Source: Candidatus Dormiibacterota bacterium (GTDB taxonomy: Bacteria > Acidobacteriota > Terriglobia > Terriglobales > Acidobacteriaceae). Taken from it: a stretch of 64,000 nt of DNA. The DNA is taken from NCBI GenBank assembly GCA_035632675.1, contig DASQGJ010000050.1, positions 69,619 to 133,618 on the forward strand. The letters are read 5' to 3'. Numbering within the stretch: position 1 is the first letter of the stretch; each line of letters begins with the position of its first letter. The notes under the pieces are model-generated. The model did no database searches. It saw only the letters and a program-made list of their open reading frames with translations, and was not told where the DNA came from. The position numbers and the translations under genes were made by a program. Shown here in pieces: positions 12,030-64,000 of the stretch.

Positions 12030-12057
12030 CACTATGTGCCCTATATAATTTTAAGCA

Positions 12058-13557
12058 ATGACTTTTCAACATCTGCTGGATGGCGCGGAGTTTCTCAGCC
12101 AGAGCGGGAATCCGGACGTCAGCGGTGTCGAATACGACTCCCGACGCGTGAAGGCGGGCAGCGTATTCGTGGCCATGCAGGGAGAGACGTCCGATGGGAA
12201 TCGCTTCATCGACCAGGCGATCCGGGCGGGAGCGATTGCAATCGTCACGGATTCGCCGGCAGAAAAGCAGCGGGAGGGCGTCGCCTGGGCCCTGGTGCCG
12301 CACGGGCGGCGGGCGCTGGCGCGGCTGAGCGCGAATTTCTACAAGCGTCCCGCCGAGCGGATTGCGGTCACCGGGATCACCGGAACCAACGGAAAGAGCA
12401 CCACCGCTTTTTTGATCGAGGCGATTCTGACGGCGGCGGGGCGCAAGAGCGCGCTGATTGGAACAATCGAATATCACGTGGCGGGACGAGTCTATCCCGC
12501 GCCGCACACCACTCCGGAGGCGCTGGAACTGGCGCGCCTTTTCAGTGAGGCGCTGGGTGAGGGTGCAACGGATGCCGTGATTGAAGTTTCATCGCATGCA
12601 CTTGCGCAACAGCGTGTGTTCGGCGTGCCGTTTGACGTTGCCGTTTTCACGAACCTCACCCGCGATCACCTCGACTATCACAAGACGATGGAGGAATATT
12701 TCGCGGCCAAGCGCGTACTGTTCGAAGGCTGCGGGACCGACGCGCCCCGCGCTGTAGTGACGAATCTCGATGACGAGTATGGAGTGAAACTAGCGGAGTT
12801 CAGCCGCAAGCGCAGTTCCGTGGTCCTGACGTATGGCTGGACACGCGGAGATTTCCATGCGGAGAAGGCGGACGTCACGCCGCGCGGCACGCGCTTCGAC
12901 ATGATCACTCCGCAGGAAAAGCTGGCGATCTTCTCGCCGCTGATTGGCCGGGTGAACGTGTACAACATTCTGGCCGCGGCGGCGGCGTGCTTCGCGCGGG
13001 GGTGCCCGGCGGATGCGATCATGCGCGGAGTCGGCGCGCTCACCCATGTCCCGGGGCGATTTCAGCGTGTGGATTGCGGGCAGCCGTTCACGGTGGTCAT
13101 CGACTACGCGCACACCGACGACGCGCTGCGCAACCTCACCGGGCTGGCGCGCGAGTTCGTGTCGCGAGGCGGCGGGGGAGCGCGGGTGATCACTCTTTTT
13201 GGGTGCGGCGGAGATCGTGATCGTGCGAAGCGTCCGCTGATGGGCGAGGCTGCCGGGCGTGGCAGCGACTTTGCCGTGCTCACGTCGGACAATCCGCGAA
13301 GTGAAGACCCGCTGGCGATCATCAACGACGCGCTGGTCGGGCTGCAGAGGACAGGCGCGAAGTATTCCGTGGAAGTCGACCGCAGGAAGGCGATTGCGCT
13401 CGCGATTGGAGAGGCGCGCCCCGGAGACATTGTGCTGCTCGCGGGCAAGGGACATGAGAAGGTGCAGGTGACGCGCGATGGGTCGCATCCATTCGATGAT
13501 GTAGAAGTGGCGCGGGAAGTGTTGCGGGGTGCGGGGTTCGAGTGCGGAGCTAAATAG
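12058..13557 (+). CDS. murE: UDP-N-acetylmuramoyl-L-alanyl-D-glutamate--2,6-diaminopimelate ligase
   Basis: Mur ligase P-loop GITGTNGKSTT. A DNPRSEDP (DNPR) motif typical of meso-DAP-adding MurE. dcw context. Confidence 0.92.
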   Translation: MTFQHLLDGAEFLSQSGNPDVSGVEYDSRRVKAGSVFVAMQGETSDGNRFIDQAIRAGAIAIVTDSPAEKQREGVAWALVPHGRRALARLSANFYKRPAERIAVTGITGTNGKSTTAFLIEAILTAAGRKSALIGTIEYHVAGRVYPAPHTTPEALELARLFSEALGEGATDAVIEVSSHALAQQRVFGVPFDVAVFTNLTRDHLDYHKTMEEYFAAKRVLFEGCGTDAPRAVVTNLDDEYGVKLAEFSRKRSSVVLTYGWTRGDFHAEKADVTPRGTRFDMITPQEKLAIFSPLIGRVNVYNILAAAAACFARGCPADAIMRGVGALTHVPGRFQRVDCGQPFTVVIDYAHTDDALRNLTGLAREFVSRGGGGARVITLFGCGGDRDRAKRPLMGEAAGRGSDFAVLTSDNPRSEDPLAIINDALVGLQRTGAKYSVEVDRRKAIALAIGEARPGDIVLLAGKGHEKVQVTRDGSHPFDDVEVAREVLRGAGFECGAK

Positions 13558-22493: not shown

Positions 22494-24965
22494 ATGGGCC
22501 CCTTCATCGCTCAGCTTCGACAAGTAATCCGGCGGCTCATTCATACACCTCTGTTCACAGCGGTTACCCTCATAACGCTCGCAATTGGGGTGGGTGCAAA
22601 TACCGCAATTTTCAGCGTAATCGAAGGCATCCTGCTCAAGCCCTTGCCGTTTCGGCACTCGGAAAGCTTGGTGGCCATGCGCCTCACTGCGTCCGGTATG
22701 AACCTGTACGAGGTGCCACTATCGCCCTCGACCTACTTCATATTGCGCGAACAGTGCCGAGTTCTCGAGGATGTCGGTCTTTATGACTCGTATTCCGCAA
22801 ACGTCACCGGTGTGGCCGAACCGGAACGGGTGCAAGCGCTGAACATGACCGATGGCCTTCTCCCGATTCTTCGCGTTCGGCCGGTGCTTGGCCGCGGGTT
22901 CACCCGCGAGGACGACTCTGCGGGCGGCCAGGACGTCGTGATTCTCGGCTATGGATATTGGCAGCGAAAATTCGGTGGGGATCGATCCGCCATCGGAAGA
23001 AGCATCAAGGTGGATGGCAAGCCAGAGGAAATCATTGGTGTACTACCCCATGATTTTCGCTTCCTCGACGAGCCGGACCCGGCTGTGATCCTCCCCTTCA
23101 AGTTCGATCGGGCGAAGACGTTCTTAGGGAACTACAGCTACCATGCAGTAGCCAGGCTTAAACCCGGCGTAACACTGCCTGAGAGTGCTGCCGATGTCGC
23201 GCGCGTGCTTCCCCTCGTCCTGGAGAACTTTGGCCCTCCTCCAGGTTTCAGCCTCGCTTTGTTTGAGCAGGCGCATTTCGGCCCCAACCTGCGTTTCCTG
23301 AAACAGGATGTCGTGGGAGATATCTCCAGCACTTTGTGGGTGCTGATGGGCGGTCTCGGGATGGTGCTGCTGATCGCCTGTGCCAATGTTGCCAACCTGC
23401 TGCTCGTCAGGACCGAGTGCCGTCAGCAGGAGTTGGCAGTTCGTGCTGCGCTGGGTGCCAGCCCGCGTCGCCTCGCGGGCGAGATGCTGTTCGAAAGCCT
23501 GATCCTTGGATTGCTCGGAGGTGGGCTCGGGGTAGCGTTCGCAGGACTGGCGCTGCGCGTCCTCCTCGCGATAGCGCCCGCTAGTCTTCCTCGCCTGAAC
23601 GAGATTGGCCTGGACGGTCCAGTGTTGCTCTTCACATTCATCGTCTCTGCGGCCGCGGGCCTGCTGTTCGGTTGCATTCCGGTTCTGAAGTTCCCGGGCA
23701 CACGTCTTGGAACGGGGCTGCGCGAGGGCGGACGATCTCTCAGCGCAAGCCGCGAACGGCACCGGGCTCGCAACAGTCTGGTCGTTGTCCAGGTGTCGCT
23801 GGCCCTCGTTCTGATGATCGCCTCCGGACTCATGATCCGCAGCTTCCGCGCCATGACCCACGTTGAGCCTGGTTTCTCTGATCCGGCTGAAGTTCAGACG
23901 TTCCGCGTGATGATCCCCGACGCCCAAATTCCTGATCCCGAGCGGGTCATCCATACTGAGGAAGCTGTGCTGCGGAATTTGGCGGCCGTTCCCGGAGTGA
24001 CCGTGGCGGGGATCTCCACCAGCATCCCCATGGATGATAGTGGTTATATCGATCCGATTTATGCCAAGGATCGCTCCGATTCCGAAGGCGGTGTCCCGCC
24101 ACTCCGTCAGTTCAAATTCGTTTCACCCGGATACTTCAAAACCGTCGGCACGCCCCTGATTGTCGGCCGTGATCTGACGTGGCCTGATGCCTATGACAAG
24201 CGGTCAGTCGCAATCGTTTCCGAGAACTTGGCTCGCGAGTACTGGCACGATCCTTCCAATGCACTCGGCAAACAGATTCGTAACGGAACTACAGATGATT
24301 GGCGAGAAATCGTCGGCGTCGTCGGCGATGTTCGCCATAACGGTGTAGACCAGAAAGCTCCCTCCATTGTCTATTGGCCGCTGTTGCTCGTCCATTTCGA
24401 TGGAAACCCGGTCGAGGTGAGGCGTGAGATAGCCTTTGCTCTGCGTTCAAAACGGGCAGGTTCGCAAAGCCTGATGAGCGACGTCCGCCGCGCCGTGTGG
24501 TCGGTCGATGCCAATCTCCCCTTGGCGGAAATTCACACACTCGATTACTACTACCGTAAATCGATGGCGCGCACTTCGTTCACGCTAGTAATGCTCGCCC
24601 TGGCAGGGAGCATGGCCCTGCTACTCGGAATTGTTGGCTTGTACGGAGTCGTCGCTTACTCGGTCTCACAGCGCAGGCGTGAAGTCGGGGTGCGTATGGC
24701 ACTCGGCGCTCGCCGGGGAGAACTTGTCGGAATGTTCGTGCGCCATGCCTTGGGACTCACCGTGGTTGGAGTTACGTTGGGCCTTGGTGCGGCATTGGCG
24801 GTGATGCGCCTGATGTCGTCATTGCTGTTTGGAGTCAAGCCTGTTGATCTAGTCACTTACGGCGTGGTCACGGTCGTCCTCATCGCAACTGCGGCGCTCT
24901 CCAGCTATCTTCCGGCCCGCCGCGCCGCTACCGTGAATCCGGTCGAAACTCTGCGCGCGGAGTAG
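22494..24965 (+). CDS. ADOP-family duplicated ABC-type permease (two MacB_PCD/FtsX modules)
   Basis: 823 aa, with AGGAGG before the ATG. The N-terminus (LRRLIHTPLFTAVTLITLAIGVGANTAIFSVIEGILLKPLPF) and the two FtsX-type 4-TM halves fit the acidobacterial duplicated orphan permease family. No ATPase gene is adjacent. Confidence 0.8.
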   Translation: MGPFIAQLRQVIRRLIHTPLFTAVTLITLAIGVGANTAIFSVIEGILLKPLPFRHSESLVAMRLTASGMNLYEVPLSPSTYFILREQCRVLEDVGLYDSYSANVTGVAEPERVQALNMTDGLLPILRVRPVLGRGFTREDDSAGGQDVVILGYGYWQRKFGGDRSAIGRSIKVDGKPEEIIGVLPHDFRFLDEPDPAVILPFKFDRAKTFLGNYSYHAVARLKPGVTLPESAADVARVLPLVLENFGPPPGFSLALFEQAHFGPNLRFLKQDVVGDISSTLWVLMGGLGMVLLIACANVANLLLVRTECRQQELAVRAALGASPRRLAGEMLFESLILGLLGGGLGVAFAGLALRVLLAIAPASLPRLNEIGLDGPVLLFTFIVSAAAGLLFGCIPVLKFPGTRLGTGLREGGRSLSASRERHRARNSLVVVQVSLALVLMIASGLMIRSFRAMTHVEPGFSDPAEVQTFRVMIPDAQIPDPERVIHTEEAVLRNLAAVPGVTVAGISTSIPMDDSGYIDPIYAKDRSDSEGGVPPLRQFKFVSPGYFKTVGTPLIVGRDLTWPDAYDKRSVAIVSENLAREYWHDPSNALGKQIRNGTTDDWREIVGVVGDVRHNGVDQKAPSIVYWPLLLVHFDGNPVEVRREIAFALRSKRAGSQSLMSDVRRAVWSVDANLPLAEIHTLDYYYRKSMARTSFTLVMLALAGSMALLLGIVGLYGVVAYSVSQRRREVGVRMALGARRGELVGMFVRHALGLTVVGVTLGLGAALAVMRLMSSLLFGVKPVDLVTYGVVTVVLIATAALSSYLPARRAATVNPVETLRAE

Positions 24966-55206: not shown

Positions 55207-55282
<76 letters not shown>

Positions 55283-55314
55283 CTCCTTTTTATACCACTG
55301 CTTGCCGGAGTGGT

Positions 55315-55581
55315 TCATTGCACGGAGCTTGAGTTGCTACCAATTGGTAGGGACGGTCTGCCTACGGCATCGAGTGCCCGGCGTTTTTCATCCCTGGTTG
55401 CTCGGTCATAAGGTTCGGGTGAACGCTCGGCCCGCTTGTGACCGACTATCGCGCTGACGACGACCGGATGCACTCCTCTTCTCCGCACTCTACGAATCAA
55501 GGGGCAGCGAAAATCGTGCCAGCCGCCAATCTTGATTCCGAGACCCGCGGCCGCAAAACGTAGGTGCAGGCGTCTTGCGTT
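55315..55581 (-). pseudogene. 5'-truncated tyrosine recombinase (phage-type integrase) remnant
   Basis: The frame open between the stop at 55582-55584 and 55315 reads ...LRFAAAGLGIKIGGWHDFRCPLIRRVRRRGVHPVVVSAIVGHKRAERSPEPYDRATRDEKRRALDAV. This follows the integrase C-terminal pattern (aGi...HDLRHT......Gv....v...lGHk....T..Y.h.....). Only about 89 codons remain and several catalytic-box residues are degenerate. Confidence 0.55.
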
Positions 55582-55646
55582 TCATGCGAGAGAATGCCTA
55601 GCGATCGAAGGCGGCCAAAGCAAAGGACGCGATGGACCGCGCATGA

Positions 55647-56825
55647 TCAACAGATCAGGGGGGTACGGGGAGCTACGCCTGATTTCAGAAGACCCTCAAT
55701 GAGGGAAATGCTCGGAGTAGTCTCCTCATATCGCCGAAATATCGTCTGCATCCGCTTTACTGCATGATGAATATGTTCACTTGTCGCAACCTCTTCTATA
55801 GTGGACGGTAATGAACCGATTGCATCGACCGAACACTTCCTGCCAAGACAATGGTGCTCAACCCGGTCGGCATTTGCTGGCTGGTCATTCAGGAAGGGGA
55901 AAACGAGCATTGGGACACCGTTAAGAATGGATTCTTTGATTGTGCCAAGCCCGCCATGAGTGATCACGAGTGAAGCGCGCTTTATTATTTCGAGCTGAGG
56001 CACACTCCTAAACGCCAATATATTGGCCTCTTCGCATGTAATAGCCGCCGGGTCCATGTGTCCCCCGACACTTACAATCAATTGATACCTGTTCCGGTTG
56101 CTCAGATCGCGGAATGCGGATACGACACTCGCCAGAAGGGAGCCACTGTCAGTGTAAGCGGTGCTTTGCGTGCCCAGGCTAAAGTAAATGAGCTGTTTTG
56201 AAATCGCGACTTTGCTGTAGTTGAACTGTTGGTCGATGCGTGGACAGAACACTGAGGGTTCGACAAAGTAACTCCGCTCCCCGTGACTCGTGTTGGGGAG
56301 ATCCAGTTCCCTGGGACACAAAACAATCTCGGGCACGTTCACGAAAGAAGTCGAACTGGAAAACTCTTTGCCAGGTTTCGTCGAAAGGGGTTTGGGGCGA
56401 AAGAAATCTTGAAAAGCAGTGCTGAGCCGTACAAAGCGGAAACGTTGAAATGCGTTGAGTAGGTGTCCGATTACGGGCCCGAACGCACTATCAACAAGGA
56501 TGCAATCCGTCTGAAGCGACTTGATCTCCCTTATAATAAGCTGCTCCAAACTGATTCCGTTAGTCGCGCAGTAAGCTAACACAACGCTTAATACTTGCAC
56601 CCCAGCATGACTGGTTTCAGCGATCGCCACGAGCTCTTGCCTCATTGACGTGAGGAAACTCAACACGGGAACGCAGTCGAACCCGAGTCTTCCCAGGAAA
56701 GGCGCATATTCGCTTGTAGTTATGTAGCGGATACGATGTCCGCGCTGCTTCAATAAAGATGCGACACGCAACGTCGGCAGCAAGTGTCCCGGCTCGGGGA
56801 GCATCAAAAAGCAGATGTCGGACAA
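55647..56825 (-). CDS. GT1-family (MGT/UDP-glycosyltransferase-like) glycosyltransferase
   Basis: N-terminus FLMLPEPGHLLPTLRVASLLKQRGHRIRYIT. C-terminal nucleotide-sugar motif THGGLGTIKESILNGVPMLVFPFLNDQPANADRVE. Confidence 0.8.
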   Translation of the reverse strand: MSDICFLMLPEPGHLLPTLRVASLLKQRGHRIRYITTSEYAPFLGRLGFDCVPVLSFLTSMRQELVAIAETSHAGVQVLSVVLAYCATNGISLEQLIIREIKSLQTDCILVDSAFGPVIGHLLNAFQRFRFVRLSTAFQDFFRPKPLSTKPGKEFSSSTSFVNVPEIVLCPRELDLPNTSHGERSYFVEPSVFCPRIDQQFNYSKVAISKQLIYFSLGTQSTAYTDSGSLLASVVSAFRDLSNRNRYQLIVSVGGHMDPAAITCEEANILAFRSVPQLEIIKRASLVITHGGLGTIKESILNGVPMLVFPFLNDQPANADRVEHHCLGRKCSVDAIGSLPSTIEEVATSEHIHHAVKRMQTIFRRYEETTPSISLIEGLLKSGVAPRTPLIC

Positions 56826-57904
56826 AGTTCTGTCTCCGCTATTCCGGTTGAAGCGAAAAGTCTACCACAGTTAGTCTGGCTAATAAGTGTGCGTGTTCGT
56901 GAGAAATCGTAAACGTCGTAGGTTAAGCGATTAGAGCCAGTCGATCCTAATGTCTTAAAGCAACTTCACATGAAGTATCGGCAGCAAGGAATCGTTACAC
57001 AGGGAGTTACTTGTGAAAGTTGGAGAAGTGAGTGTTGACCGCGGCAGACGTCAGCATCTCTTTTGAGCAGAAGTTGCTCCCGGTGCTTCATTGTGGAGGT
57101 GGAGGCAAGGCGGTAAGAAGTTCCCATTGCTCGCCAGAGCCTCGCGAGTGTTTCAGCCAGGCAACACCGCCGATTCGCTTTTCCGGGGAGTGAAATCGGA
57201 CCTTTGCTTTTGATGACGAATCAGGTTGGCAGGCTCCTCATGGGCCACGATGGGGGAACCGAGAGGATGGCGGGACGCCGGCACACAGCGCATTCAGAAA
57301 AATCAGATGGAAGCAGCTTGTTAGAATAGTGAGTCGCAGGACCCAACCCTTCCGGTCGCCCGATCTTAGGAGCTGAGTATTGTGTTGGACTGAGTATTGC
57401 TTTTTTTGGAAAGTCAGTATATAGTTTTTCCCCGTTCCCAGAACGGTGCCACAGTTATCGGGTAAGGGAAATATTTTGAGTCGCGGAGTTTGTCGCGTTC
57501 TGTGGAAAAGTCCCGGCGTCATTCAGGAAGCGAAGCTGTGCCTTTCCCCTTTTCGTCCCCTTTCAAAGATGGTGTGAGAGTGGTTGCTGGCTGATTAGTC
57601 CTTGTGCCTAATCATTCATCCAGAGAAGTTTTGCCAGTCGGTCCAGTACCGTCCGGGAAAGGGTTTTCGGGGCTCTGGACCCGGCATGCGACGGTCTCAA
57701 ATGACTATCAGCGCTGGCAGAAGTTTGCGCGCGTTGCCATCATACCAACCAAGAAATACCAACCAATTAAATCCAATGGCCGCTGCATGGACGGAAATCG
57801 GTCCTTGCCTACTGCCAACTAGAGTTGCGAGCAGTAGAAACCCAGTGCAACGTCTCAATCGAGGCAAGCGTTATCTGCTTTGGCGCGGACAAACGTAACC
57901 ACTC

Positions 57905-58576
57905 GTGCGACTCTCCTCCGTCATTCTCGCCAGAGTTCTTGCGTACGTAGAAATCGTCGACCTCAATCCGAGGGGCCGGGTTTACTATCCAGATATCGCT
58001 CGGGCTCTCGCGCAAAGGTACAGCTTCCAGAGGTATCCACAGTCAGCAGACCAACTCGACTTGCAAAAAGGTGTCGAGTTTTATGAGGGAAAGTGGAAGG
58101 GAGTTATCATTCAAAACTTCACTATATTCAGTACGATGCTGGCGTTGGAGACGCGCTGTGACACTGATGACTCTAAGAAAATTCTCGACGACATACTCGC
58201 ATGGTGTGTGGAGAAGTTTAAGCTTACGTACAATCCAGAAATGATTTCTCGTTTTGGTTACGTCAGCTCTCTGACGTTCTACAGCGACGCCCCGTTGTTA
58301 GATGGGAACGCAGCAATGACAAATCTGGCAGGGCGAACCGCGCAATTAGTGTCCGATATATGGAAAGAGCCGGTTGAATATAGCGGCGTGAGCATCGCAG
58401 TGGGTCACGAACCGTTGAGCAGGAAGTACCCCATTGCAAGGTTCACCATCCAGCGACGAGCTGACACTAAGTTTGCTGAAAACAAATATCTGTCCGAAGC
58501 GCCATTGCCCACGAATGCCCACCTTGAATTGCTGGAAATGTACGAGCGGGATATTGGGGGCGCACGATCTTTCTGA
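57905..58576 (+). CDS. hypothetical protein (223 aa)
   Basis: GTG start directly after an in-frame stop. Soluble, with no recognised family. Co-oriented with the acylase gene. Confidence 0.4.
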   Translation: MRLSSVILARVLAYVEIVDLNPRGRVYYPDIARALAQRYSFQRYPQSADQLDLQKGVEFYEGKWKGVIIQNFTIFSTMLALETRCDTDDSKKILDDILAWCVEKFKLTYNPEMISRFGYVSSLTFYSDAPLLDGNAAMTNLAGRTAQLVSDIWKEPVEYSGVSIAVGHEPLSRKYPIARFTIQRRADTKFAENKYLSEAPLPTNAHLELLEMYERDIGGARSF

Positions 58577-58723
58577 GGACATTCCTATCCGTCAGGGGTT
58601 CGAGAAAGCCAGCTGCTGGATTCGGAACGTGGTGACAACACTTCGCAGAGACACGTTCATGCGGAGCGGAAATAGAGCCAGAACAGGTAGGCGAGTCACG
58701 AAAGTATCGCGAGGACTAATTAC

Positions 58724-60871
58724 ATGTGTAGAACAGCGCAAAGGCTGTATGTCACTGCTTCTCTGCTGGCTGGAGTTGTCTTCGTTGCTGGGCTTGACGT
58801 TTGTACCGGGCAGACAGGATCCGGTGGGTCCCCGGACCCGGCGAAGACGGTTACAATCCCGACGTGCCCGGACTGTGCAGCACATGCGGTGATCCGGCGC
58901 GATCAATACGGGGTACCTCACATATTGGCGGATACGGAAGAAGCCGCTGCCTACGCTCAAGGGTATGCCACGGCAGAGGATCATGGGGCGCTTCTGGCCC
59001 GCGCATTCCTTCGAGCCCGCGGTCAGCTGGCCTCCGTATTCGGCGCTGCCTACGTGCACGAAGATGTTCACAGTCGTACGCTTCGAATTTACGATACCGC
59101 TGCTGAGCGTTTTGGAGACCTGCCGCCGTTCATGCAGGCGATCGTCAACGGGTATGCCGCTGGCTTTAATGCCTACTTAGCGAGCCACCGGACCGAGTTT
59201 CCGGCTTGGGCGACTCTGATAACCGGCGTTGATGTGGTGGCGCACGCGCGTACCGTGCTGCTGCTCGACTTCGCGCTAGACCCCAGACCCTGGGAAGAGT
59301 CTGAGCACGGAGGAGCTTCGAACATGTGGGTAATCGGGCCCGCGGTGTCTGCCACGCATCATGCCATGCTTCTGGCAAATCCACACCTGAGCTGGAACTC
59401 GGAGACACCACCGCTACAGGAAGTCCAGCTGACCGTTCCTGGAGTGATCAATGTGAGTGGGGCAGCCTTCGTGGGGACACCGATTGTGGCCATGGGATTT
59501 AATGACTCGCTGGGCTGGACTCACACTGTAAACCGTTTCAGCTCGGATGATGTTTACGAACTGACCCTCGATAGCTCCGGGAAAAAATACAAGTACGATG
59601 GCCAATGGCTGCCGCTCATTCCACATTCCATGTCCATTCCGGTACGGGAAGGCGAGCAGATGCGATCCGAAGAACACACAGCATTCTGGTCACATTACGG
59701 ACCTATTATCCGTATTGATGGCAACAAGGCCTATGCATACCGGTCTCCCAACCTGAACTTGGTGAACTTCCTGACTGAATATAACGAAATGGGGAAGGCA
59801 AGCTCCATAAATGCGTTTAGGGCAGCCCTGGACATGCAGCAAATTCCGATGTTTAACATCGGCTATGCGGACAAGGCTGGGAACATATGGTACGTGTTCA
59901 ATGCCCGCATCCCGATTCGGCCCCCGGGGTTCAACTGGCCCGGGCCAGTCGCCGGAGATACGAGCAAATCGGAATGGTTTGCGGTGTGGCCAATGACTGC
60001 GCTGCCCCAGCTCGCCAATCCGAAATCCGGATACTTGCAGAACTGCAATGATGCTCCTTGGTACACGAACTTGGAGCAGCCGATCGACCGTAGTCGTTTT
60101 GATGGCTATCTAAACACAGATGACATTACCTGGCGCGGCATGTTGAGCTTAACAATACTTAGCGCTGCGAAGGGCATGACACTCGAGAATCTGATGGCTT
60201 ATAAGTACAACTCTGAACTAATCATTGCCGATCGCCTAAAGGGAGAGCTTGTCAGCAAGCTGCGTGCGGCGGGGAACCAGTTTGGGGAGGGCATTGACGT
60301 ACTAGAGCGGTGGGACAACTCCACTCACGCCAGCAGCCAAGGCGCGGTCTTGTTCTTGGCCTGGTGGGATGAATATTCAAACAGCACCCCGCAGCCTTTC
60401 CGCGTTCCATTTGATTCGACCGACCCGATTCATACTCCAGCCGGAATTGGCGACCCGGAAAGAGCGGTTGATGCTTTCCGGAAGGCAGTCGTGACGGTAA
60501 AGGAAAAGTACGGTCACTTAGATATTACGTGGGGAGAGGTGCATCGAGCGCGGCGAGGTGGGCTCGATCTGCCTGTCGGTGGTTCCGACTTCACATTTGA
60601 GCGGATGGCCTATCGGCCCGACAAGGATGGGAAGGAGGTCGCCACGGCAGGGGATGCGTATGCTCTAGCCGTGGAATTCGGGGAGGCGCCCAGCGCCTAT
60701 AGTGTATTGCCGTACTCGGAAGCGTCTCAGCAGAGCTCACCCTACTACAATAATCAGCTCCCAATTTATGCGCACGAGAAATTCAAGCCGGACTGGTTTA
60801 CTGAGCGCGACATCCTGAGCCATCTCGATCGCGCATACCGGCCGCAGCCATCGGATGCCGGCGGCCGATAG
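58724..60871 (+). CDS. penicillin acylase-family Ntn hydrolase (S45), secreted
   Basis: Signal peptide. The internal GGASNMWVIGP contains the SNMWVIG motif, which I recall as the beta-subunit N-terminal nucleophile of E. coli penicillin G acylase. 715 aa is family-typical. Confidence 0.85.
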   Translation: MCRTAQRLYVTASLLAGVVFVAGLDVCTGQTGSGGSPDPAKTVTIPTCPDCAAHAVIRRDQYGVPHILADTEEAAAYAQGYATAEDHGALLARAFLRARGQLASVFGAAYVHEDVHSRTLRIYDTAAERFGDLPPFMQAIVNGYAAGFNAYLASHRTEFPAWATLITGVDVVAHARTVLLLDFALDPRPWEESEHGGASNMWVIGPAVSATHHAMLLANPHLSWNSETPPLQEVQLTVPGVINVSGAAFVGTPIVAMGFNDSLGWTHTVNRFSSDDVYELTLDSSGKKYKYDGQWLPLIPHSMSIPVREGEQMRSEEHTAFWSHYGPIIRIDGNKAYAYRSPNLNLVNFLTEYNEMGKASSINAFRAALDMQQIPMFNIGYADKAGNIWYVFNARIPIRPPGFNWPGPVAGDTSKSEWFAVWPMTALPQLANPKSGYLQNCNDAPWYTNLEQPIDRSRFDGYLNTDDITWRGMLSLTILSAAKGMTLENLMAYKYNSELIIADRLKGELVSKLRAAGNQFGEGIDVLERWDNSTHASSQGAVLFLAWWDEYSNSTPQPFRVPFDSTDPIHTPAGIGDPERAVDAFRKAVVTVKEKYGHLDITWGEVHRARRGGLDLPVGGSDFTFERMAYRPDKDGKEVATAGDAYALAVEFGEAPSAYSVLPYSEASQQSSPYYNNQLPIYAHEKFKPDWFTERDILSHLDRAYRPQPSDAGGR

Positions 60872-61055
60872 GGTCTTCGTCCAAACTGTAAGGGAACTTG
60901 TTCGGTTTTGTCAGCCCAAACGCCCACTTCGCTGTGCGCCCTAAGAGGCGAGAGATCTTCTACCCCACCAAGAGGCTAGAGCAGTCGAGAAAGGCTGTGC
61001 CGGGGACGCGTGTGTCATAAACACGGCTTAGTACTTACAACTGGAGGTTAGGTAT

Positions 61056-61703
61056 ATGAAAACAACTACGCAGCTTACATGGTCCGGGCTTCGAATGGTC
61101 GGAGTATGGCTACTGTTTGGCGTGCTTGCTGCCATCACGGCCGCGGGAGGTGATACGGGTAAGACACAACAGCAGCTAAAGGCGGCGTTGGAGGCTCATC
61201 AAGGCGAGTTCGACTACTTGCTGGGCGACTGGCAGTTCACGGCTAACAGCAAGCAGTTCGGGCGCATGAAAGGCTATTGGAGTGCGGTGAAGCTTGGCGA
61301 TGGCGGGCAGGTCCTGGATGAATTTCGGGTGGTAGGCGACAAGGGGCAGACGCTATATTCCAGCCTGACGCTGAGAGTATACAATCCATATCTTGAGCGC
61401 TGGGAGCTTGTAACTCTCGATCGGCGGGACGGATTGCAGAACTTCGGTACAGCTCGGCGGGAGGGCCCGGAGATGTTGATCGAGCAGAAATTCGGAGCGG
61501 TTACTCCCGAGCCTTCACTTTGGCACATCCGGTACCACGACATCAAGGCGGATTACTTTTCCTGGAGTGCCGATCGTTCGAAGGATGAGGGCAAAACGTG
61601 GCAGAAAGACTTTGAGACCATCGAGGCCAAGCGTATCGGGCCGCCGCGAACGATGGAGCCGCTAACTGCCGGACATAAAGCTACAGCGTCAGTGTTGCCC
61701 TAG
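61056..61703 (+). CDS. hypothetical secreted protein (possibly DUF1579-like)
   Basis: Signal/anchor helix. FDYLLGDWQF...GYWSAVKLGDGGQVLDEF is a lipocalin-like pattern. The family call is tentative. Confidence 0.45.
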   Translation: MKTTTQLTWSGLRMVGVWLLFGVLAAITAAGGDTGKTQQQLKAALEAHQGEFDYLLGDWQFTANSKQFGRMKGYWSAVKLGDGGQVLDEFRVVGDKGQTLYSSLTLRVYNPYLERWELVTLDRRDGLQNFGTARREGPEMLIEQKFGAVTPEPSLWHIRYHDIKADYFSWSADRSKDEGKTWQKDFETIEAKRIGPPRTMEPLTAGHKATASVLP

Positions 61704-61791
61704 CTTATAGCTTGTGCGACGAGTTACGGATAGGGCTGCACGCGCGTGAGCGTGCTGTTTAAGGCGCGGCACCTCATGATGGCTGCCGAGT

Positions 61792-62859
61792 TTATGAGCT
61801 TGCGGCGACCGCGGATGCTTGGATTGCGTCTCGCGCACGTGCGACATCTAATCGCCATGCGGTGGCCGCGACCCATGGCTGGAATCCGAGAGCGCGATTC
61901 AAGCTCAGAATCGGCTGATTCCAGCTGGCGTTGCCGGTGTGTAATTCCTGAACGTGGGGCAGTTCGGAGATGATCTCCTGCAGCATGGCTGCTTTCAGCC
62001 ATTTGGCGAGACCAAGTCCGCGATGATTAGGATGCACAATGGTTGCCGCCTGATAGACCAAATCCGGGTCGGAGCCGCGGAAGTTTAGTTCTGTGAAGCC
62101 AGCAAGCTCATCCGACTCTCGTGGGCGCACGATGATCGACCACCTGCGGCGCTCAGTTGGCCACCAGGCCTCCAGAGCCCGCGCCTCCTCTATCGTCGTA
62201 ACCGGGAGTTCGTGTAGTAACTCATCGCCATTTATGGTGCGAGTGCTATTGCGCAACTCGAAAACAGCCGCCAGGATTTCTTCGGGGTAAGGACCCTCGA
62301 TCAGGAGCATGCGGTAATCGCCAGAAGATGCAACCTCGTTGGTCGTCCATTGCATGATCAGCGGCCGGTTGACTTCTGACAGCACGAGCCGATTCAGTAT
62401 TAGCTCATCAAGCCTCTCTGCCCCGAGCATTTTCGCGAATTGTGATCCCGCATCCACACGGTCTGTAGTCCAACCGACCATCGTAGAACGGTTATTACCT
62501 TCCGCAACTCCTACCAGCAGCGATAGCATCGAACGCGCTAATCCTTTCTTTCGCCATTGGGGGTGGACGGAAATGTGGATTTGGCAATTCCGCTGCTGAT
62601 CCATCGAAGTTGCCATTACGATTTTTCCTTCCGCAGTGACCTCCCCACCGGAATCGCGGCCAACGAACAACTGCACACTGACTTGTGCGGGAAGACTGTT
62701 TAGACTGGCGCGTGCTAATTGGAAAGGAACGAGCGGGGATTCTTCACACATGAGGGCATCGTACCTAAGCCACGCCCCGATTTCGTCGGGCGTTACGTCG
62801 TTGAAGTTCACCTCATGGATAACTGCCTCGCTCGCGTGAAACACCTTTCCGTGTGGCAT
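61792..62859 (-). CDS. tandem GNAT-domain N-acyltransferase
   Basis: Two GNAT acyl-CoA loops (HPQWRKKGLARSML and HPNHRGLGLAKWL) about 170 aa apart. The start is preferred at ATG 62859, which is preceded by GAGGA. The Arg/Trp-rich 90-codon extension to 63129 looks non-coding. Confidence 0.65.
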   Translation of the reverse strand: MPHGKVFHASEAVIHEVNFNDVTPDEIGAWLRYDALMCEESPLVPFQLARASLNSLPAQVSVQLFVGRDSGGEVTAEGKIVMATSMDQQRNCQIHISVHPQWRKKGLARSMLSLLVGVAEGNNRSTMVGWTTDRVDAGSQFAKMLGAERLDELILNRLVLSEVNRPLIMQWTTNEVASSGDYRMLLIEGPYPEEILAAVFELRNSTRTINGDELLHELPVTTIEEARALEAWWPTERRRWSIIVRPRESDELAGFTELNFRGSDPDLVYQAATIVHPNHRGLGLAKWLKAAMLQEIISELPHVQELHTGNASWNQPILSLNRALGFQPWVAATAWRLDVARARDAIQASAVAASS

Positions 62860-63110
62860 GGGGAATCGTCCTCTGTAGTGACGTTTTAAGCTCTCGGCAG
62901 GGCTAACTAGTGCGCGGCAGATGTTGTCGGACAAAGACGGGCGCAGAGATTTGCGGCACTCGTTGTGGGACAGCACGGGGATCGTGAAAGGCGGGCGTAG
63001 TCCAAGGTTGGAGCGGCGAGACCACGCACGGGACGCCGCCCAGCGCGCTGTCAATACAACCTTCCTATAGACCCAGCTCCGAGCCCTCACCCTGGCGTTC
63101 CGTAGGAGGA

Positions 63111-63224
63111 TCAGCAGACGGAAGACCATAGACTGCCCCGGGCGTGGAGGTCAACGATTGCTGAGATCAACCGGACTCGCCGATATCGCTTGAAGTGACC
63201 TGCAAGGAGATCGAAAGCTAGCAT
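63111..63224 (-). CDS. candidate 37-aa peptide ORF coupled to the LanB-like stop codon
   Basis: The arrangement is GGAGGG-TAA-gtttcca-ATG. The translation is MLAFDLLAGHFKRYRRVRLISAIVDLHARGSLWSSVC. There is no independent support. Confidence 0.2.
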   Translation of the reverse strand: MLAFDLLAGHFKRYRRVRLISAIVDLHARGSLWSSVC

Positions 63225-63231
63225 TGGAAAC

Positions 63232-64000
63232 TTACCCTCCTTCTGGTTCTACGGATCTGGCAACCGCCGCGTGACTTGTATCCAGCGCAATGCAGCGCAG
63301 TTCGCACGTGTAGCGCTGATCACGCGCGTCGGGAAGCCAGAGTTGATCGATTGCAGGCAGCATTTCTGAAATTTCCACACTCCCGGTATTTGCCTGCGGA
63401 TCATCGAGAGCTCGCCTAACCAGTCTCGCAAAGATATCGACGAAGATTGGACTGTCAAAGTCTAAGTAGGAAGGCTGTCTTTCCAGTGGAATTTTGACAA
63501 ATACGAACCGTGGAATTCCCCGATCACTCGCCCACGTTCTGGTCTCAAGGAAAAGTTCGGCAGAATCGAGACCCTTCAAGAAATGCAGGTCAGTCAGCGG
63601 GATGCGCCAGGTCTCGCGGCTAATGACCAAGCGTTCGATGGAGATTCGCGGAATATGGTCGCGCTGTAAAAGTCCTCCTTTGAAGCAATGTGCCGCGGCC
63701 AAACTAAGGAGCCAGCCGGTTAGCTCGATCAATGGCATGTGGAAGGTGCCATCCCGAGAGCGAGCCATGATTTCATCGTCTTGATTTTCCAGGACCAGCG
63801 AGGACAGCGGTATGACACGGCTACGGTCGGTTGCAAAAGCAGATTCGGAATACTCCAAGAAATAGGTTGAATTCGTCAGGAACGAATACGCACTTCGACT
63901 GCCGAGCGTTTCGGCGGATGGAGATACGGGCAGAATGTGGATTCCGGCGTAGTCCTGTTCGGTCGCGTCCAGTAAATCCTGGGGTGACGGGTGTTGGTTG
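63232..64000 (-). CDS. LanB-like (Lant_dehydr_N-type) protein, C-terminal part; no elimination domain
   Basis: The frame is open to the window edge (checked codon by codon from 63859 to 63999). ...HIPRISIERLVISRETWRIPLTDL...GIPRFVFVKIPLERQPSYLDFDSPIF...VEISEMLP matches my memory of the end of the lantibiotic-dehydratase N-terminal domain. The stop comes 40 aa later. Confidence 0.45.
   Translation of the reverse strand, partial: NQHPSPQDLLDATEQDYAGIHILPVSPSAETLGSRSAYSFLTNSTYFLEYSESAFATDRSRVIPLSSLVLENQDDEIMARSRDGTFHMPLIELTGWLLSLAAAHCFKGGLLQRDHIPRISIERLVISRETWRIPLTDLHFLKGLDSAELFLETRTWASDRGIPRFVFVKIPLERQPSYLDFDSPIFVDIFARLVRRALDDPQANTGSVEISEMLPAIDQLWLPDARDQRYTCELRCIALDTSHAAVARSVEPEGG

What the first reader, a model, noticed from the sequence alone, without database searches (positions are those of the whole stretch)
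61792..64000. Elimination-domain-less LanB-like enzyme followed by a coupled mini-ORF and a tandem-GNAT protein: candidate undescribed peptide-modification system
A minus-strand ORF is open to the window edge, so its N-terminus lies outside. Its last ~190 aa read ...LLQRDHIPRISIERLVISRETWRIPLTDLHFLKGLDSAELFLETRTWASDRGIPRFVFVKIPLERQPSYLDFDSPIFVDIF...VEISEMLP.... From memory this is the pattern that closes the Lant_dehydr_N (LanB glutamylation) domain: LPRvryGR.VLspA.Wrl ... W...glPR.V.L.e.D..L.LDLd.p ... E.lP. The protein stops 40 aa after EMLP. That leaves no room for the roughly 250-aa elimination (Lant_dehydr_C/SpaB_C) domain. It would therefore be a small or split LanB, as used by thiopeptide pathways and by PEARL peptide-aminoacyl-tRNA ligases. 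What follows on the same strand is not an elimination-domain or LanC gene. It is a stop-coupled 37-codon ORF and a protein with two GNAT folds. I know of no described RiPP class that pairs a small LanB with a tandem GNAT. The locus sits in a low-GC island next to a GT1 glycosyltransferase and an Ntn acylase, all plausible tailoring enzymes.
Basis: partly seen in the sequence, partly recalled or inferred. Interest (0 to 1): 0.72.

Follow-up and report, generated by a model that had tools for sequence, protein, structure and literature searches.

The report
PEARL-type small LanB with tandem GNAT
The window ends inside the gene for a stand-alone LanB-like enzyme that looks like a peptide aminoacyl-tRNA ligase (PEARL), followed by a two-domain acetyltransferase. 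In related soil-metagenome contigs this pair closes a roughly 13-kb radical-SAM-rich biosynthetic cluster, so it is a sound genome-mining lead of a known kind and not a new class of system.

Summary
The minus-strand ORF 63232-64000 is open to the window edge. It matches the last 80 positions of Pfam Lant_dehydr_N (31.1 bits, cut-off 28) and stops 40 aa after EMLP.

Orthologues on metagenome contigs (88% and 69% identical) are 877 and 896 aa and contain PF04738 only. None of 152 family members has more than 42 residues after the C-terminal E-x-R motif.

The family keeps the residues that the literature gives as PEARL-specific (Asp, E-x-H, E-x-R). No PF14028 or LanC gene was found in the contexts I scanned. 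I therefore read it as a PEARL-type ligase, not a dehydratase.

The GNAT is a genuine Orf14-like tandem GNAT. Its real start is 62859 (355 aa), not 63129.

LanB followed by GNAT recurs in four related contigs, but is absent from more distant LanB relatives and from more distant GNAT relatives. The conserved partners lie upstream, beyond the window: rSAM-SPASM, B12-rSAM, LysA-like decarboxylase, CPBP protease and ADOP permease. The GT1 and the acylase are not syntenic.

The mini-ORF looks protein-coding in two lineages and is absent from two others.

Verdict: a new variant of the known PEARL/pearlin kind, product unknown, moderate interest.

The parts
63232..64000 (-). C-terminal 255 codons plus stop of a stand-alone LanB N-domain protein (PEARL-type small LanB). 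The N-terminal ~620 aa lie beyond the window edge.
   Evidence: Frame open to the edge. PF04738 at 31.1 bits, above GA 28. 88% identical to the 877-aa L006 protein and 69% to the 896-aa L024 protein. Family profile 299.6 bits.
63295..63303 (-). E-L-R codons (fragment residues 233-235): the family-invariant E-x-R motif, equated with TglB Glu801/Arg803 of PEARLs.
   Evidence: E855 is present in 148 and R857 in 149 of 152 family members. The spacing from the LP motif to E is 18 residues, as in TbtB; anchors R743 and F783 are aligned. PEARL residues are taken from PMC11117183 and PMC11962472.
63111..63224 (-). 37-codon mini-ORF (MLAFDLLAGHFKRYRRVRLISAIVDLHARGSLWSSVC). Its ATG lies 7 nt after the LanB stop.
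   Evidence: A 24-codon core is conserved in L024. The ORF is absent from L006 and L025.
63144..63215 (-). Conserved 72-nt core of the mini-ORF (codons 4-27). It also contains the palindrome CGATATCG and a -35-like TTGACC.
   Evidence: 74% nt and 75% aa identity to L024 17464-17535. In this frame only: 8 synonymous and 6 non-synonymous codon changes with no stops, permutation P ~0.003. The promoter-like site is not above chance.
62860..63110 (-). Non-conserved spacer between the mini-ORF and the GNAT start, wrongly included in the 445-aa ORF.
   Evidence: It does not align with L006 or L024, except for the last ~60 nt holding the RBS and start. No Rfam match and no repeats.
61792..62859 (-). 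Tandem GNAT acyltransferase, 355 aa, Orf14-like. Both domains carry the R-x-x-G-x-A acyl-CoA motif (WRKKGLA and HRGLGLA).
   Evidence: Pfam PF00583 and PF13508, two stretches each. PDB 2WPW at E 1.4e-16. AlphaFold pLDDT 84.3, Foldseek 2WPW E 2.5e-24, TM 0.74-0.80. Start codon conserved. P0051 is 100% identical.
61056..61703 (+). 215-aa secreted protein of unknown function, convergent with the GNAT. A syntenic neighbour whose membership of the cluster is unproven.
   Evidence: 76-86% identical copies in the same position in L006, L008 and L024. Replaced by an ADOP permease in L025. No Pfam family.

Best explanation
The ORF at the window edge is the C-terminal quarter of a stand-alone LanB N-domain enzyme of about 880 aa. 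It most likely works as a peptide aminoacyl-tRNA ligase (PEARL). Such an enzyme phosphorylates a substrate carboxylate with ATP, most likely the C-terminus of a small ribosomal scaffold peptide held by an internal PqqD-like recognition domain. It then transfers an amino acid from aminoacyl-tRNA onto that carboxylate.

It is the penultimate gene of a conserved same-strand cluster, seen in orthologous contigs: GT2, DUF3050 (haem-oxygenase-like), rSAM-SPASM, an 86-aa ORF, an ApyD-like B12-rSAM, a LysA-like PLP decarboxylase, a CPBP intramembrane protease, an ADOP (MacB/FtsX-type) permease, the small LanB and the tandem GNAT.

By analogy with pearlin pathways, the appended residue would be tailored by the radical-SAM, oxygenase and decarboxylase enzymes. 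It would then be cut off or matured by the membrane protease and exported. The Orf14-like tandem GNAT, a clade-specific addition, would acylate a free amine of the product or an intermediate, either as maturation or as self-protection.

**Shown:** domain content, absence of an elimination domain, conserved residues, synteny, and the GNAT fold.

**Inferred:** ATP and aa-tRNA chemistry, the substrate, the order of steps and the role of the GNAT.
For: **1. No elimination domain.**
- The fragment ends 20 aa after E-x-R.
- The orthologues contain PF04738 only.
- All 152 aligned family members have at most 42 aa after E-x-R; their median length is 859 aa.

**2. No PF14028 or LanC gene in the contexts examined.**
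- The 19.4-kb L024 contig has none.
- L005/L009, L015, L016 and L027 have none among the genes scanned.
- PMC11212132 states that PEARLs differ from dehydratases in exactly this respect, and in having extra conserved residues for ATP use.

**3. PEARL-type residues are nearly invariant.**
- In L006 numbering: R42, D587, E608-x-H610, R750, F789 and E855-x-R857, each present in 148-152 of 152 members.
- The profile alignment to TbtB places R750 on TbtB R743 and F789 on F783.
- Spacing places E855 on TbtB E851 and R857 at the position where split LanBs have Leu.
- The D, E-x-H and E-x-R pattern and its spacing match TglB D542/E564/E801/R803 and BhaB7 D558/E575/H577/E813/R815 (PMC11117183, PMC11962472, PMC12945691).

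**4. A peptide-recognition domain.** Profile positions 268-340 match PqqD, an RRE fold, at E 1.6e-4.

**5. Family contexts typical of PEARLs.**
- Three paralogues per cluster in L014-L016.
- Fusions to an NRPS C-A-T module.
- An NRPS-type neighbourhood for the closest representative.
- These agree with bioRxiv 10.1101/338681 and PMC11212132.

**6. Cluster logic parallels the tmo pearlin cluster.** That cluster has a PEARL, a B12-rSAM, a membrane metalloprotease and a transporter (PMC9303977).

**7. The LanB-GNAT adjacency is conserved.**
- Same strand and same order in the window, L006, L024 and L025.
- This holds while the downstream neighbour changes.
- L026 has a 30-aa remnant of the LanB N-terminus between an ADOP permease and a GNAT.
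Against: - No characterised PEARL sequence was available. The residue equivalences rest on published numbering, motif spacing and a partial TbtB alignment, not on a direct alignment.
- D587, E608 and H610 lie outside the window and are inferred from orthologues.
- No scaffold or precursor peptide could be identified with confidence.
- The window's own upstream sequence could not be retrieved, so the cluster is inferred from contigs that are 59-88% identical.
- The GNAT is absent from all LanB relatives at 48% identity or less.
- GNAT relatives at 35% identity or less occur without a LanB, next to penicillin-amidase acylases.
- In the window and in L024 the GNAT is separated from the LanB by 300-370 nt and may have its own promoter.
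- ADOP permeases are very numerous in Acidobacteria, so the adjacency of one may be incidental.
Confidence: 0.55

Rival explanations
1. The enzyme is a split-LanB glutamylation subunit, as in thiopeptide and goadsporin pathways. It would use Glu-tRNA to dehydrate Ser/Thr in a precursor peptide, with its elimination partner encoded elsewhere.
For: The only solved structures that the family profile finds are split-LanB glutamylation proteins: TbtB (6EC7, E 1e-17) and the goadsporin protein (9JHQ, E 1e-7). An RRE-like domain is present. A GNAT relative in L026 lies near a LanC-like gene.
Against: No PF14028 gene was found in L024 or among the scanned neighbours in the five other family contexts. 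Arg is invariant where split LanBs are reported to carry Leu. The Asp and E-x-H of the ATP site are invariant (PMC11117183). No Ser/Thr/Cys-rich core peptide was seen.
Confidence: 0.08
2. The LanB is a PEARL-type enzyme, but the tandem GNAT is an unrelated neighbour. It could be a stand-alone acyltransferase for resistance or housekeeping, functionally tied to the acylase and ADOP permease genes, so the pairing has no mechanistic meaning.
For: More distant GNAT relatives lie beside Penicil_amidase acylases, MM-CoA mutase and further GNAT paralogues, without a LanB. The window also has an acylase 1 kb away. LanB relatives outside the clade lack the GNAT. The gap between the two genes is 300-370 nt in two lineages, with a promoter-like site.
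Against: The order and strand are kept in four contigs whose GNATs are 59-84% identical. In L025 the gap is only ~52 nt and in L006 150 nt, which suggests co-transcription. The adjacency survives replacement of the downstream gene. L026 keeps a LanB remnant next to the GNAT. GNAT and LanB diverge in parallel: 84% with 88%, and 59% with 69%.
Confidence: 0.3
3. The PEARL-type enzyme acts on a small molecule or a non-ribosomal intermediate, not on a ribosomal scaffold peptide. Examples would be a decarboxylase- or rSAM-derived amino acid, as SinB1/SinB2 do in sinefungin biosynthesis or SnaE on an NRPS product.
For: No convincing scaffold gene was found. The closest family representative sits in an NRPS-type context, and two members are fused to C-A-T modules. 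PEARLs acting on small molecules are reported (bioRxiv 10.64898/2026.05.21.726688; PMC11212132). The cluster has a LysA-like decarboxylase, an enzyme type that normally acts on free amino acids.
Against: An internal PqqD-like RRE is present. The cluster has an rSAM-SPASM and an ApyD-like B12-rSAM, both typical of peptide maturation. It has a CPBP protease but no NRPS in 19 kb. A conserved small ORF lies next to the LanB in two lineages.
Confidence: 0.2
4. The mini-ORF encodes the scaffold or precursor peptide of the small LanB.
For: It starts 7 nt after the LanB stop behind a GGAGG. Its 24-codon core is conserved with L024, with a coding-type substitution pattern (P ~0.003). PEARL scaffold peptides are small and are encoded beside the PEARL gene (bioRxiv 10.1101/338681).
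Against: It is absent from L006 and L025, which keep LanB and GNAT. The C-termini, which would be the site of PEARL chemistry, differ completely between the window and L024. It has no Pfam family. The conserved stretch also holds a palindrome and a -35-like hexamer, so it could be regulatory.
Confidence: 0.15

Closest known systems
PEARLs (LanB_C enzymes: TglB, TmoB, BhaB1/4/5/7, AmmB1-4, SnaE, SinB1/2) and their pearlin gene clusters
   Same: A stand-alone PF04738 protein of about 860-900 aa with no elimination domain. Invariant Asp, E-x-H, Arg, Phe and E-x-R with PEARL-like spacing. No PF14028 gene nearby. Relatives occur as multiple paralogues per cluster and in NRPS contexts. The cluster pairs it with a B12-rSAM, a membrane protease and a transporter, as in tmo (PMC9303977).
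   Different: No NCBIfam family matches it, and a single-sequence search finds no PDB relative. The tailoring set (rSAM-SPASM, DUF3050, LysA-like decarboxylase, GT2, tandem GNAT) is not that of any characterised pearlin cluster. No MNIO (DUF692), flavoenzyme or glycine oxidase is present. The protease is a CPBP-type enzyme, whereas TmoG is described only as a membrane-bound metalloprotease; I did not test whether the two are related. The scaffold peptide is unidentified. The lineage is acidobacterial.
Split LanB glutamylation proteins (TbtB of thiomuracin, PDB 6EC7/6EC8; goadsporin protein, PDB 9JHQ)
   Same: Same domain and similar length. They are the best solved-structure matches to the family profile (E 1e-17 and 1e-7). 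The adenine-binding Arg and Phe are shared.
   Different: No partner elimination protein. Arg and Asp occupy the positions where split LanBs are reported to have Leu and Tyr (PMC11117183). No thiazole/oxazole or pyridine-synthase genes are present.
Orf14, the tandem GNAT of the clavulanic acid cluster (PDB 2WPW/2WPX)
   Same: Two fused GNAT domains in about 340-355 aa. 22% identity, E 1.4e-16 by sequence, TM 0.74-0.80 by fold. Acyl-CoA motifs in both domains. Encoded in a secondary-metabolite cluster that also contains an ATP-dependent amide ligase (GcaS, an ATP-grasp enzyme) (PMC8788787).
   Different: The substrate of Orf14 is itself unknown. There is no beta-lactam context here. The partner ligase here is tRNA-dependent.
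Class I lanthipeptide dehydratases (NisB, MibB)
   Same: They share the PF04738 N-terminal domain and an RRE-like element.
   Different: This protein lacks the ~250-aa PF14028 elimination domain. No LanC and no Ser/Thr/Cys-rich precursor are present. This protein is not a member.

Membership tests
Pfam PF04738 Lant_dehydr_N superfamily | Significant match to the family HMM above the gathering score | tested here: met
   Window fragment: 31.1 bits against GA 28, profile positions 570-647 of 649. L024 orthologue: 108.5 bits. P0083: 98.3 bits.
Full-length class I LanB dehydratase | C-terminal elimination domain (PF14028, SpaB_C) fused to the N-domain | tested here: not met
   The protein ends 40 aa after EMLP. 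The orthologues are 877 and 896 aa with PF04738 only. None of 152 relatives has more than 42 aa after E-x-R.
Full-length class I LanB dehydratase | A LanC cyclase and a Ser/Thr/Cys-rich precursor in the cluster | tested here: not met
   No PF05147 in L024. A LanC-like gene appears only in the distant L026 context.
Split LanB (thiopeptide / goadsporin type) | A separate elimination-domain protein encoded in the same cluster | tested here: not met
   No PF14028 among the genes scanned in L024, L005/L009, L015, L016 or L027.
Split LanB (thiopeptide / goadsporin type) | Tyr and Leu at the positions that are Asp542 and Arg803 in TglB (PMC11117183) | tested here: not met
   D587 is present in 152 of 152 members and R857 in 149 of 152. 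The position equivalence is inferred from TbtB anchors and spacing, not from a full alignment.
PEARL (peptide aminoacyl-tRNA ligase, LanB_C) | Glutamylation-like domain only, with no co-occurring PF14028 (PMC11212132) | tested here: met
PEARL (peptide aminoacyl-tRNA ligase, LanB_C) | ATP-grasp-like phosphorylation residues: Asp, Glu-x-His and Glu-x-Arg (TglB D542, E564, E801, R803; BhaB7 D558, E575, H577, E813, R815) | tested here: inconclusive
   All are present and nearly invariant, with matching spacing. Only E-x-R, R750 and F789 lie inside the window. No characterised PEARL sequence was available for a direct alignment.
PEARL (peptide aminoacyl-tRNA ligase, LanB_C) | An adjacent scaffold or carrier peptide gene | tested here: inconclusive
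   The candidates are the mini-ORF (conserved in 2 of 4 lineages) and the 86-aa ORF in L024. Neither is validated.
PEARL (peptide aminoacyl-tRNA ligase, LanB_C) | ATP- and aminoacyl-tRNA-dependent amide bond formation | not testable with these tools
   This needs an in vitro assay or co-expression followed by LC-MS.
Tandem GNAT (Orf14-like) | Two GNAT folds in one chain of about 340-355 aa, similar to Orf14 | tested here: met
   Pfam gives two stretches. 2WPW at E 1.4e-16 over residues 25-337. Foldseek E 2.5e-24, TM 0.74-0.80, pLDDT 84.
Tandem GNAT (Orf14-like) | Acyl-CoA pyrophosphate-binding motif (Q/R-x-x-G-x-G/A) | tested here: met
   Read directly from the sequence: WRKKGLA in domain 1 and HRGLGLA in domain 2. 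R103, G106, R280 and G281 are invariant in 19 homologues.
Fem / aa-tRNA-dependent GNAT-fold transferases | Closest fold and sequence similarity to FemX-type proteins, and lack of the acyl-CoA motif | tested here: not met
   FemX appears only at rank 30, with TM ~0.5. No PF02388 hit. The acyl-CoA motifs are present.

The most novel reading that the evidence does not exclude
The cluster makes a new pearlin-type metabolite by a route not yet described. The PEARL would load a diamino or basic amino acid onto a small scaffold peptide, possibly the mini-ORF or the 86-aa ORF product. Two radical-SAM enzymes, a DUF3050 oxygenase and a LysA-like decarboxylase would remodel it, and a CPBP protease would release it. 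The Orf14-like tandem GNAT would N-acylate it as a pro-drug or self-protection step, which a periplasmic penicillin-amidase-type acylase reverses after ADOP-mediated export. That acylation-deacylation cycle would explain why this GNAT family recurs next to acylases and ADOP permeases.
Probability: 0.12. Interest if true: 0.7.

Novelty: new variant of a known kind. Interest (0 to 1): 0.42.

Why it matters
PEARLs are a recently recognised way of making amide bonds without the ribosome or NRPSs, and only a handful of pathways have been worked out. This locus, with its orthologues, gives a compact and conserved cluster from Acidobacteriota, a phylum with few characterised natural products.

The cluster combines a PEARL-type enzyme with two radical-SAM enzymes, a PLP decarboxylase, a DUF3050 oxygenase and a tandem GNAT. 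That enzyme set differs from all characterised pearlin clusters, so it probably encodes new chemistry. It also offers a natural test of what Orf14-type tandem GNATs do, since their substrate is still unknown even in clavulanic acid biosynthesis.

It is a useful target for heterologous expression. It does not overturn current understanding.

Tried and rejected
**Searches that gave nothing**
- *Retrieving the window's own contig beyond 64000.* The GNAT is 100% identical to P0051 (NCBI MAG, 264-kb contig), but that gene is not in the contig index. The GTDB-representative scan found only a relative 40% identical.
- *Word-indexed protein search with the fragment.* It missed the relatives that are 88% and 69% identical. 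They were reached through the GNAT instead.
- *phmmer of the 877-aa orthologue against PDB.* No hit; a family profile was needed.
- *NCBIfam.* No family for the LanB.
- *Direct alignment with TglB, BhaB7 or AmmB.* Their sequences were not obtainable. The supplements of PMC11962472 hold no sequence text.
- *Rfam and repeat searches of the LanB-GNAT spacer.* Nothing found. An apparent 'CPTTSAA' repeat in one reading frame is not a DNA repeat.

**Ideas rejected or left unsupported**
- *Integrase remnant next to tRNA-Lys.* No Pfam support.
- *GT1 and acylase as cluster members.* Rejected for lack of synteny in L008, the only related contig that runs past p215. The recurring GNAT-acylase neighbourhood in distant relatives is nevertheless noted.
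- *GNAT as an aa-tRNA-dependent Fem-like enzyme.* Rejected on fold rank and on the acyl-CoA motifs.
- *The 445-aa GNAT ORF.* Rejected in favour of the conserved start at 62859.

The last homologous-protein search was left unused. Short-peptide queries were unlikely to be informative.


Full report
**1. The observation**

The minus-strand frame 63235-63999 contains no stop codon up to the window edge, and the ORF ends with TAA at 63232-63234. The 255-aa fragment matches Pfam PF04738 (Lant_dehydr_N) at E 9.4e-8 and 31.1 bits, above the gathering score of 28. Residues 109-188 align to profile positions 570-647 of 649, the very end of the domain.

A 37-codon ORF (63111-63224) starts 7 nt after the LanB stop, behind a GGAGG. 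The next large ORF has two GNAT domains.

One correction is needed. The 445-aa reading from 63129 is an over-extension. The ATG at 62859, preceded by GAGGA, aligns with the start codons of the orthologous genes in L006 and L024, and the sequence upstream of it does not align. The GNAT is therefore 355 aa (61792-62859). It is separated from the mini-ORF by 251 nt and is not translationally coupled to it.

**2. What lies beyond the window edge**

The window's own contig could not be fetched. The GNAT is 100% identical to P0051 from an NCBI MAG contig of 264 kb, but that gene is not in the contig index. The GTDB scan returned only a relative 40% identical.

Close GNAT homologues led to orthologous metagenome contigs: L006 (GNAT 84% identical), L024/L007/L008 (59%) and L025 (74%). 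The window's LanB fragment is 88% identical to the 877-aa L006 protein and 69% identical to the 896-aa L024 protein. Both contain PF04738 only.

The complete 19.4-kb contig L024 shows one same-strand array:
- GT2
- DUF3050 (haem-oxygenase-like)
- radical SAM/SPASM
- an 86-aa ORF
- B12-binding radical SAM; the best NCBIfam match is the RiPP enzyme ApyD, E 3e-82, below the cut-off
- LysA-like PLP decarboxylase
- Rce1-like CPBP intramembrane protease
- ADOP-family duplicated permease (TIGR03434, above the cut-off)
- small LanB
- tandem GNAT
- a convergent 215-aa secreted protein, also present in the window at 61056-61703

L006 has the same order from the B12-rSAM onwards. There is no PF14028 and no LanC.

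**3. What the LanB-like enzyme is**

An exhaustive HMMER search with the L006 orthologue finds 2743 representatives of 50%-identity clusters at E <= 1e-3, and 1217 at E <= 1e-30. The best 150 are 689-901 aa and align end to end, apart from two proteins in which an NRPS C-A-T module is fused in front of the LanB part. In an alignment of 152 members, no protein has more than 42 residues after the C-terminal E-x-R motif.

The following residues (L006 numbering) are nearly invariant:

| Residue | Members with it (of 152) |
|---|---|
| R42 | 149 |
| D587 | 152 |
| E608 | 151 |
| H610 | 151 |
| R750 | 152 |
| F789 | 149 |
| E855 | 148 |
| R857 | 149 |

A single-sequence search finds nothing in the PDB. 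A family profile finds the split-LanB glutamylation proteins TbtB (E 1e-17) and the goadsporin protein 9JHQ. It also finds PqqD at profile positions 268-340 (E 1.6e-4), which indicates an internal RiPP-recognition-element fold.

In the TbtB alignment, R750 falls on TbtB R743 and F789 on F783, the adenine-binding pair. The distance from the LP motif to E855 is 18 residues, the same as to TbtB E851.

The literature states that PEARLs differ from split LanBs in two ways. They have Asp and Arg (TglB D542, R803) where split LanBs have Tyr and Leu. They also have an ATP-grasp-like set: D542, E564 followed by a conserved His, and E801-x-R803. In BhaB7 the same set is D558, E575, H577, E813 and R815 (PMC11117183, PMC11962472, PMC12945691). 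The literature also states that PEARLs do not co-occur with PF14028 (PMC11212132).

The D587 ... E608-x-H610 ... E855-x-R857 pattern and its spacing fit the PEARL state. No PF14028 gene was found in L024 or among the scanned neighbours in L005/L009, L015, L016 and L027.

The family contexts are also PEARL-like:
- three paralogues per cluster in L014-L016
- an NRPS-type neighbourhood for the closest representative
- half-size relatives such as P0017, of the kind noted in PMC11117183

I could not align a characterised PEARL directly, so the residue equivalence is an inference. Only R750, F789 and E-x-R lie inside the window itself.

**4. The GNAT**

The 355-aa protein matches Orf14, the tandem GNAT of the clavulanic acid cluster (PDB 2WPW), at E 1.4e-16 over residues 25-337. 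An AlphaFold model built from 19 homologues (pLDDT 84.3, pTM 0.82) has Orf14 as its top fold match (E 2.5e-24, TM 0.74-0.80). VipF, MshD and other tandem GNATs follow, and FemX appears only at rank 30. Both domains carry an R-x-x-G-x-A acyl-CoA motif. It is therefore an acyl-CoA-dependent tandem GNAT. The substrate of Orf14 itself is unknown (PMC8788787).

**5. Is the LanB-GNAT pair meaningful?**

*For.* The same order and strand occur in four contigs whose GNATs are 59-84% identical to the window's.
- L025 begins with the last 13 codons of a LanB (...LRCIAVDANARHA*), only about 52 nt before its GNAT.
- In L025 the downstream gene differs: an ADOP permease instead of p215.
- L026, with a GNAT 35-42% identical, has an ADOP permease, a 30-aa remnant of the small-LanB N-terminus (E 0.0015 against the family profile) and then the GNAT, with a LanC-like gene upstream.

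*Against.*
- Every LanB relative at 48% identity or less lacks the GNAT.
- GNAT relatives at about 33-35% identity lie with further GNAT paralogues, MM-CoA mutase, a CPBP protease and, notably, penicillin-amidase acylases.
- The window also has such an acylase 1 kb away (58724-60871). It has no counterpart in L008, the one close relative whose contig extends past p215.

The pairing is therefore a clade-specific feature and not a property of either family. The GT1 and the acylase cannot be counted as cluster members.

**6. The mini-ORF**

A 24-codon core (63144-63215) is 75% identical at the protein level to L024 17464-17535. In that frame the two copies differ by 8 synonymous and 6 non-synonymous codon changes with no stops. 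Four of the other five frames give 1 synonymous against 12-13 non-synonymous changes, one minus-strand frame gives 6 against 7, and all five contain stops. A permutation test gives P of about 0.003. This points to a real small coding gene.

Several observations argue against an essential role:
- It is absent from L006 (150-nt gap) and from L025 (about 52-nt gap).
- The C-termini differ between the window and L024.
- The stretch also holds the palindrome CGATATCG and a -35-like TTGACC, although promoter-like matches are not above chance.

Its role, whether scaffold peptide, another small protein or a regulatory insert, remains open. No Rfam family and no repeats were found in the spacer.

**7. 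Most likely mechanism**

*Shown:* the window's fragment is the end of a stand-alone LanB N-domain protein with PEARL-type conserved residues. Orthologous contigs embed it in a conserved cluster with two radical-SAM enzymes, a decarboxylase, an intramembrane protease and a permease, followed by an Orf14-like tandem GNAT.

*Inferred:* the enzyme would phosphorylate the C-terminal carboxylate of a scaffold peptide held by its RRE, and ligate an amino acid from aminoacyl-tRNA. The radical-SAM, DUF3050 and decarboxylase enzymes would tailor the appended residue. The CPBP protease would release it and the ADOP permease export it, as in the tmo and tgl pearlin pathways (PMC9303977). The GNAT would acylate a free amine of the product or an intermediate.

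My confidence figures:

| Hypothesis | Confidence |
|---|---|
| LanB is a PEARL-type enzyme | about 0.7 |
| GNAT belongs to the same pathway | about 0.55 |
| Whole picture | about 0.55 |
| Rival: split-LanB dehydratase with a distant partner | about 0.08 |
| Rival: GNAT is an unrelated neighbour | about 0.3 |
| Rival: substrate is a small molecule or NRPS product | about 0.2 |
| Sub-hypothesis: mini-ORF is the scaffold peptide | about 0.15 |

**8. Comparison with what is known, and novelty**

The enzyme fails the tests for a full-length class I LanB and for a split LanB. It meets the testable PEARL criteria: domain content, neighbourhood and conserved-residue pattern. The chemistry cannot be tested here.

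I found no paper that pairs a PEARL with a GNAT, and the tailoring set differs from every characterised pearlin cluster. The general logic, however, is described: a small LanB with a B12-rSAM, a membrane protease and a transporter. Small LanBs are known to be abundant and to occur in many contexts (bioRxiv 10.1101/338681).

I rate this a new variant of a known kind, with moderate interest (0.42). It is a good heterologous-expression target from an under-explored phylum, not a categorically new system.

Noticed in passing
window 55207-55282 (+), and 55300-64000: A tRNA-Lys(CTT) gene sits exactly where GC falls from about 0.58-0.63 to 0.51-0.56. The stretch from GT1 to the LanB may be a genomic island inserted at a tRNA. 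A 61-aa ORF beside the tRNA gave no integrase match.
   Followed up: partly
window 58724-60871 (+); L020 9035-11317; L022 ~12036-13445: Penicillin-amidase (Ntn) acylases lie next to tandem GNATs of this family in distant, LanB-free contexts as well as in the window. This recurring GNAT-acylase neighbourhood might reflect an acylation-deacylation cycle. It has no counterpart in L008.
   Followed up: partly
L026 1-5601: LanC-like gene (PF05147, 100.9 bits), then an ADOP permease, then a 30-aa remnant of a small-LanB N-terminus (E 0.0015), then an 80-aa ORF, then a tandem GNAT. It looks like a decayed version of the ADOP-LanB-GNAT arrangement in a lanthipeptide-like setting.
   Followed up: partly
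P0196 (2001 aa), P0197 (1894 aa); L027 3322-5952: Two family members are fused behind an NRPS C-A-T module. The closest 50%-cluster representative (47% identical) sits with a type II thioesterase, a CmlA-like hydroxylase, an Asp/Glu racemase, MbtH and an M28 peptidase. The same small-LanB family therefore also serves non-ribosomal pathways.
   Followed up: partly
L014, L015, L016: These clusters carry three small-LanB paralogues each, together with a B12-rSAM, an alpha/beta-hydrolase-GT28 fusion, an MBL-fold protein, HlyD/OEP export genes and small (120-132 aa) weakly PDZ-like ORFs placed just before the LanB genes.
   Followed up: partly
L001 10001-11173 (P0017): A 390-aa 'half-size' LanB-like protein that matches only the C-terminal half of the family. 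It lies next to an ECF sigma factor and an ADOP-like permease. Similar short relatives are mentioned in PMC11117183.
   Followed up: no
window 61056-61703 (+): A 215-aa protein with a signal peptide and no Pfam family is the conserved convergent neighbour of the GNAT in L006, L008 and L024 (76-86% identical). It is replaced by an ADOP permease in L025.
   Followed up: partly
window 22521-24962 (+): A second ADOP/MacB-FtsX-type duplicated permease, 27% identical to the cluster's permease. This fits the known expansion of the family in Acidobacteria, and means that the adjacency of one such permease is weak evidence for an export role.
   Followed up: no
P0051 (source record of the window's GNAT): NCBI labels the source MAG 'Candidatus Dormibacteraeota'. 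The ADOP permeases and most taxonomically labelled LanB relatives point to Acidobacteriota, so the bin's taxonomic label may be wrong.
   Followed up: no
window 55647-56825 (-) and 57905-58576 (+): A GT1 glycosyltransferase of the macrolide-GT (MGT) type (TIGR01426, 141 bits, below the cut-off) and a 223-aa protein with no family lie in the lowest-GC part of the window. Neither has a counterpart in L008.
   Followed up: partly
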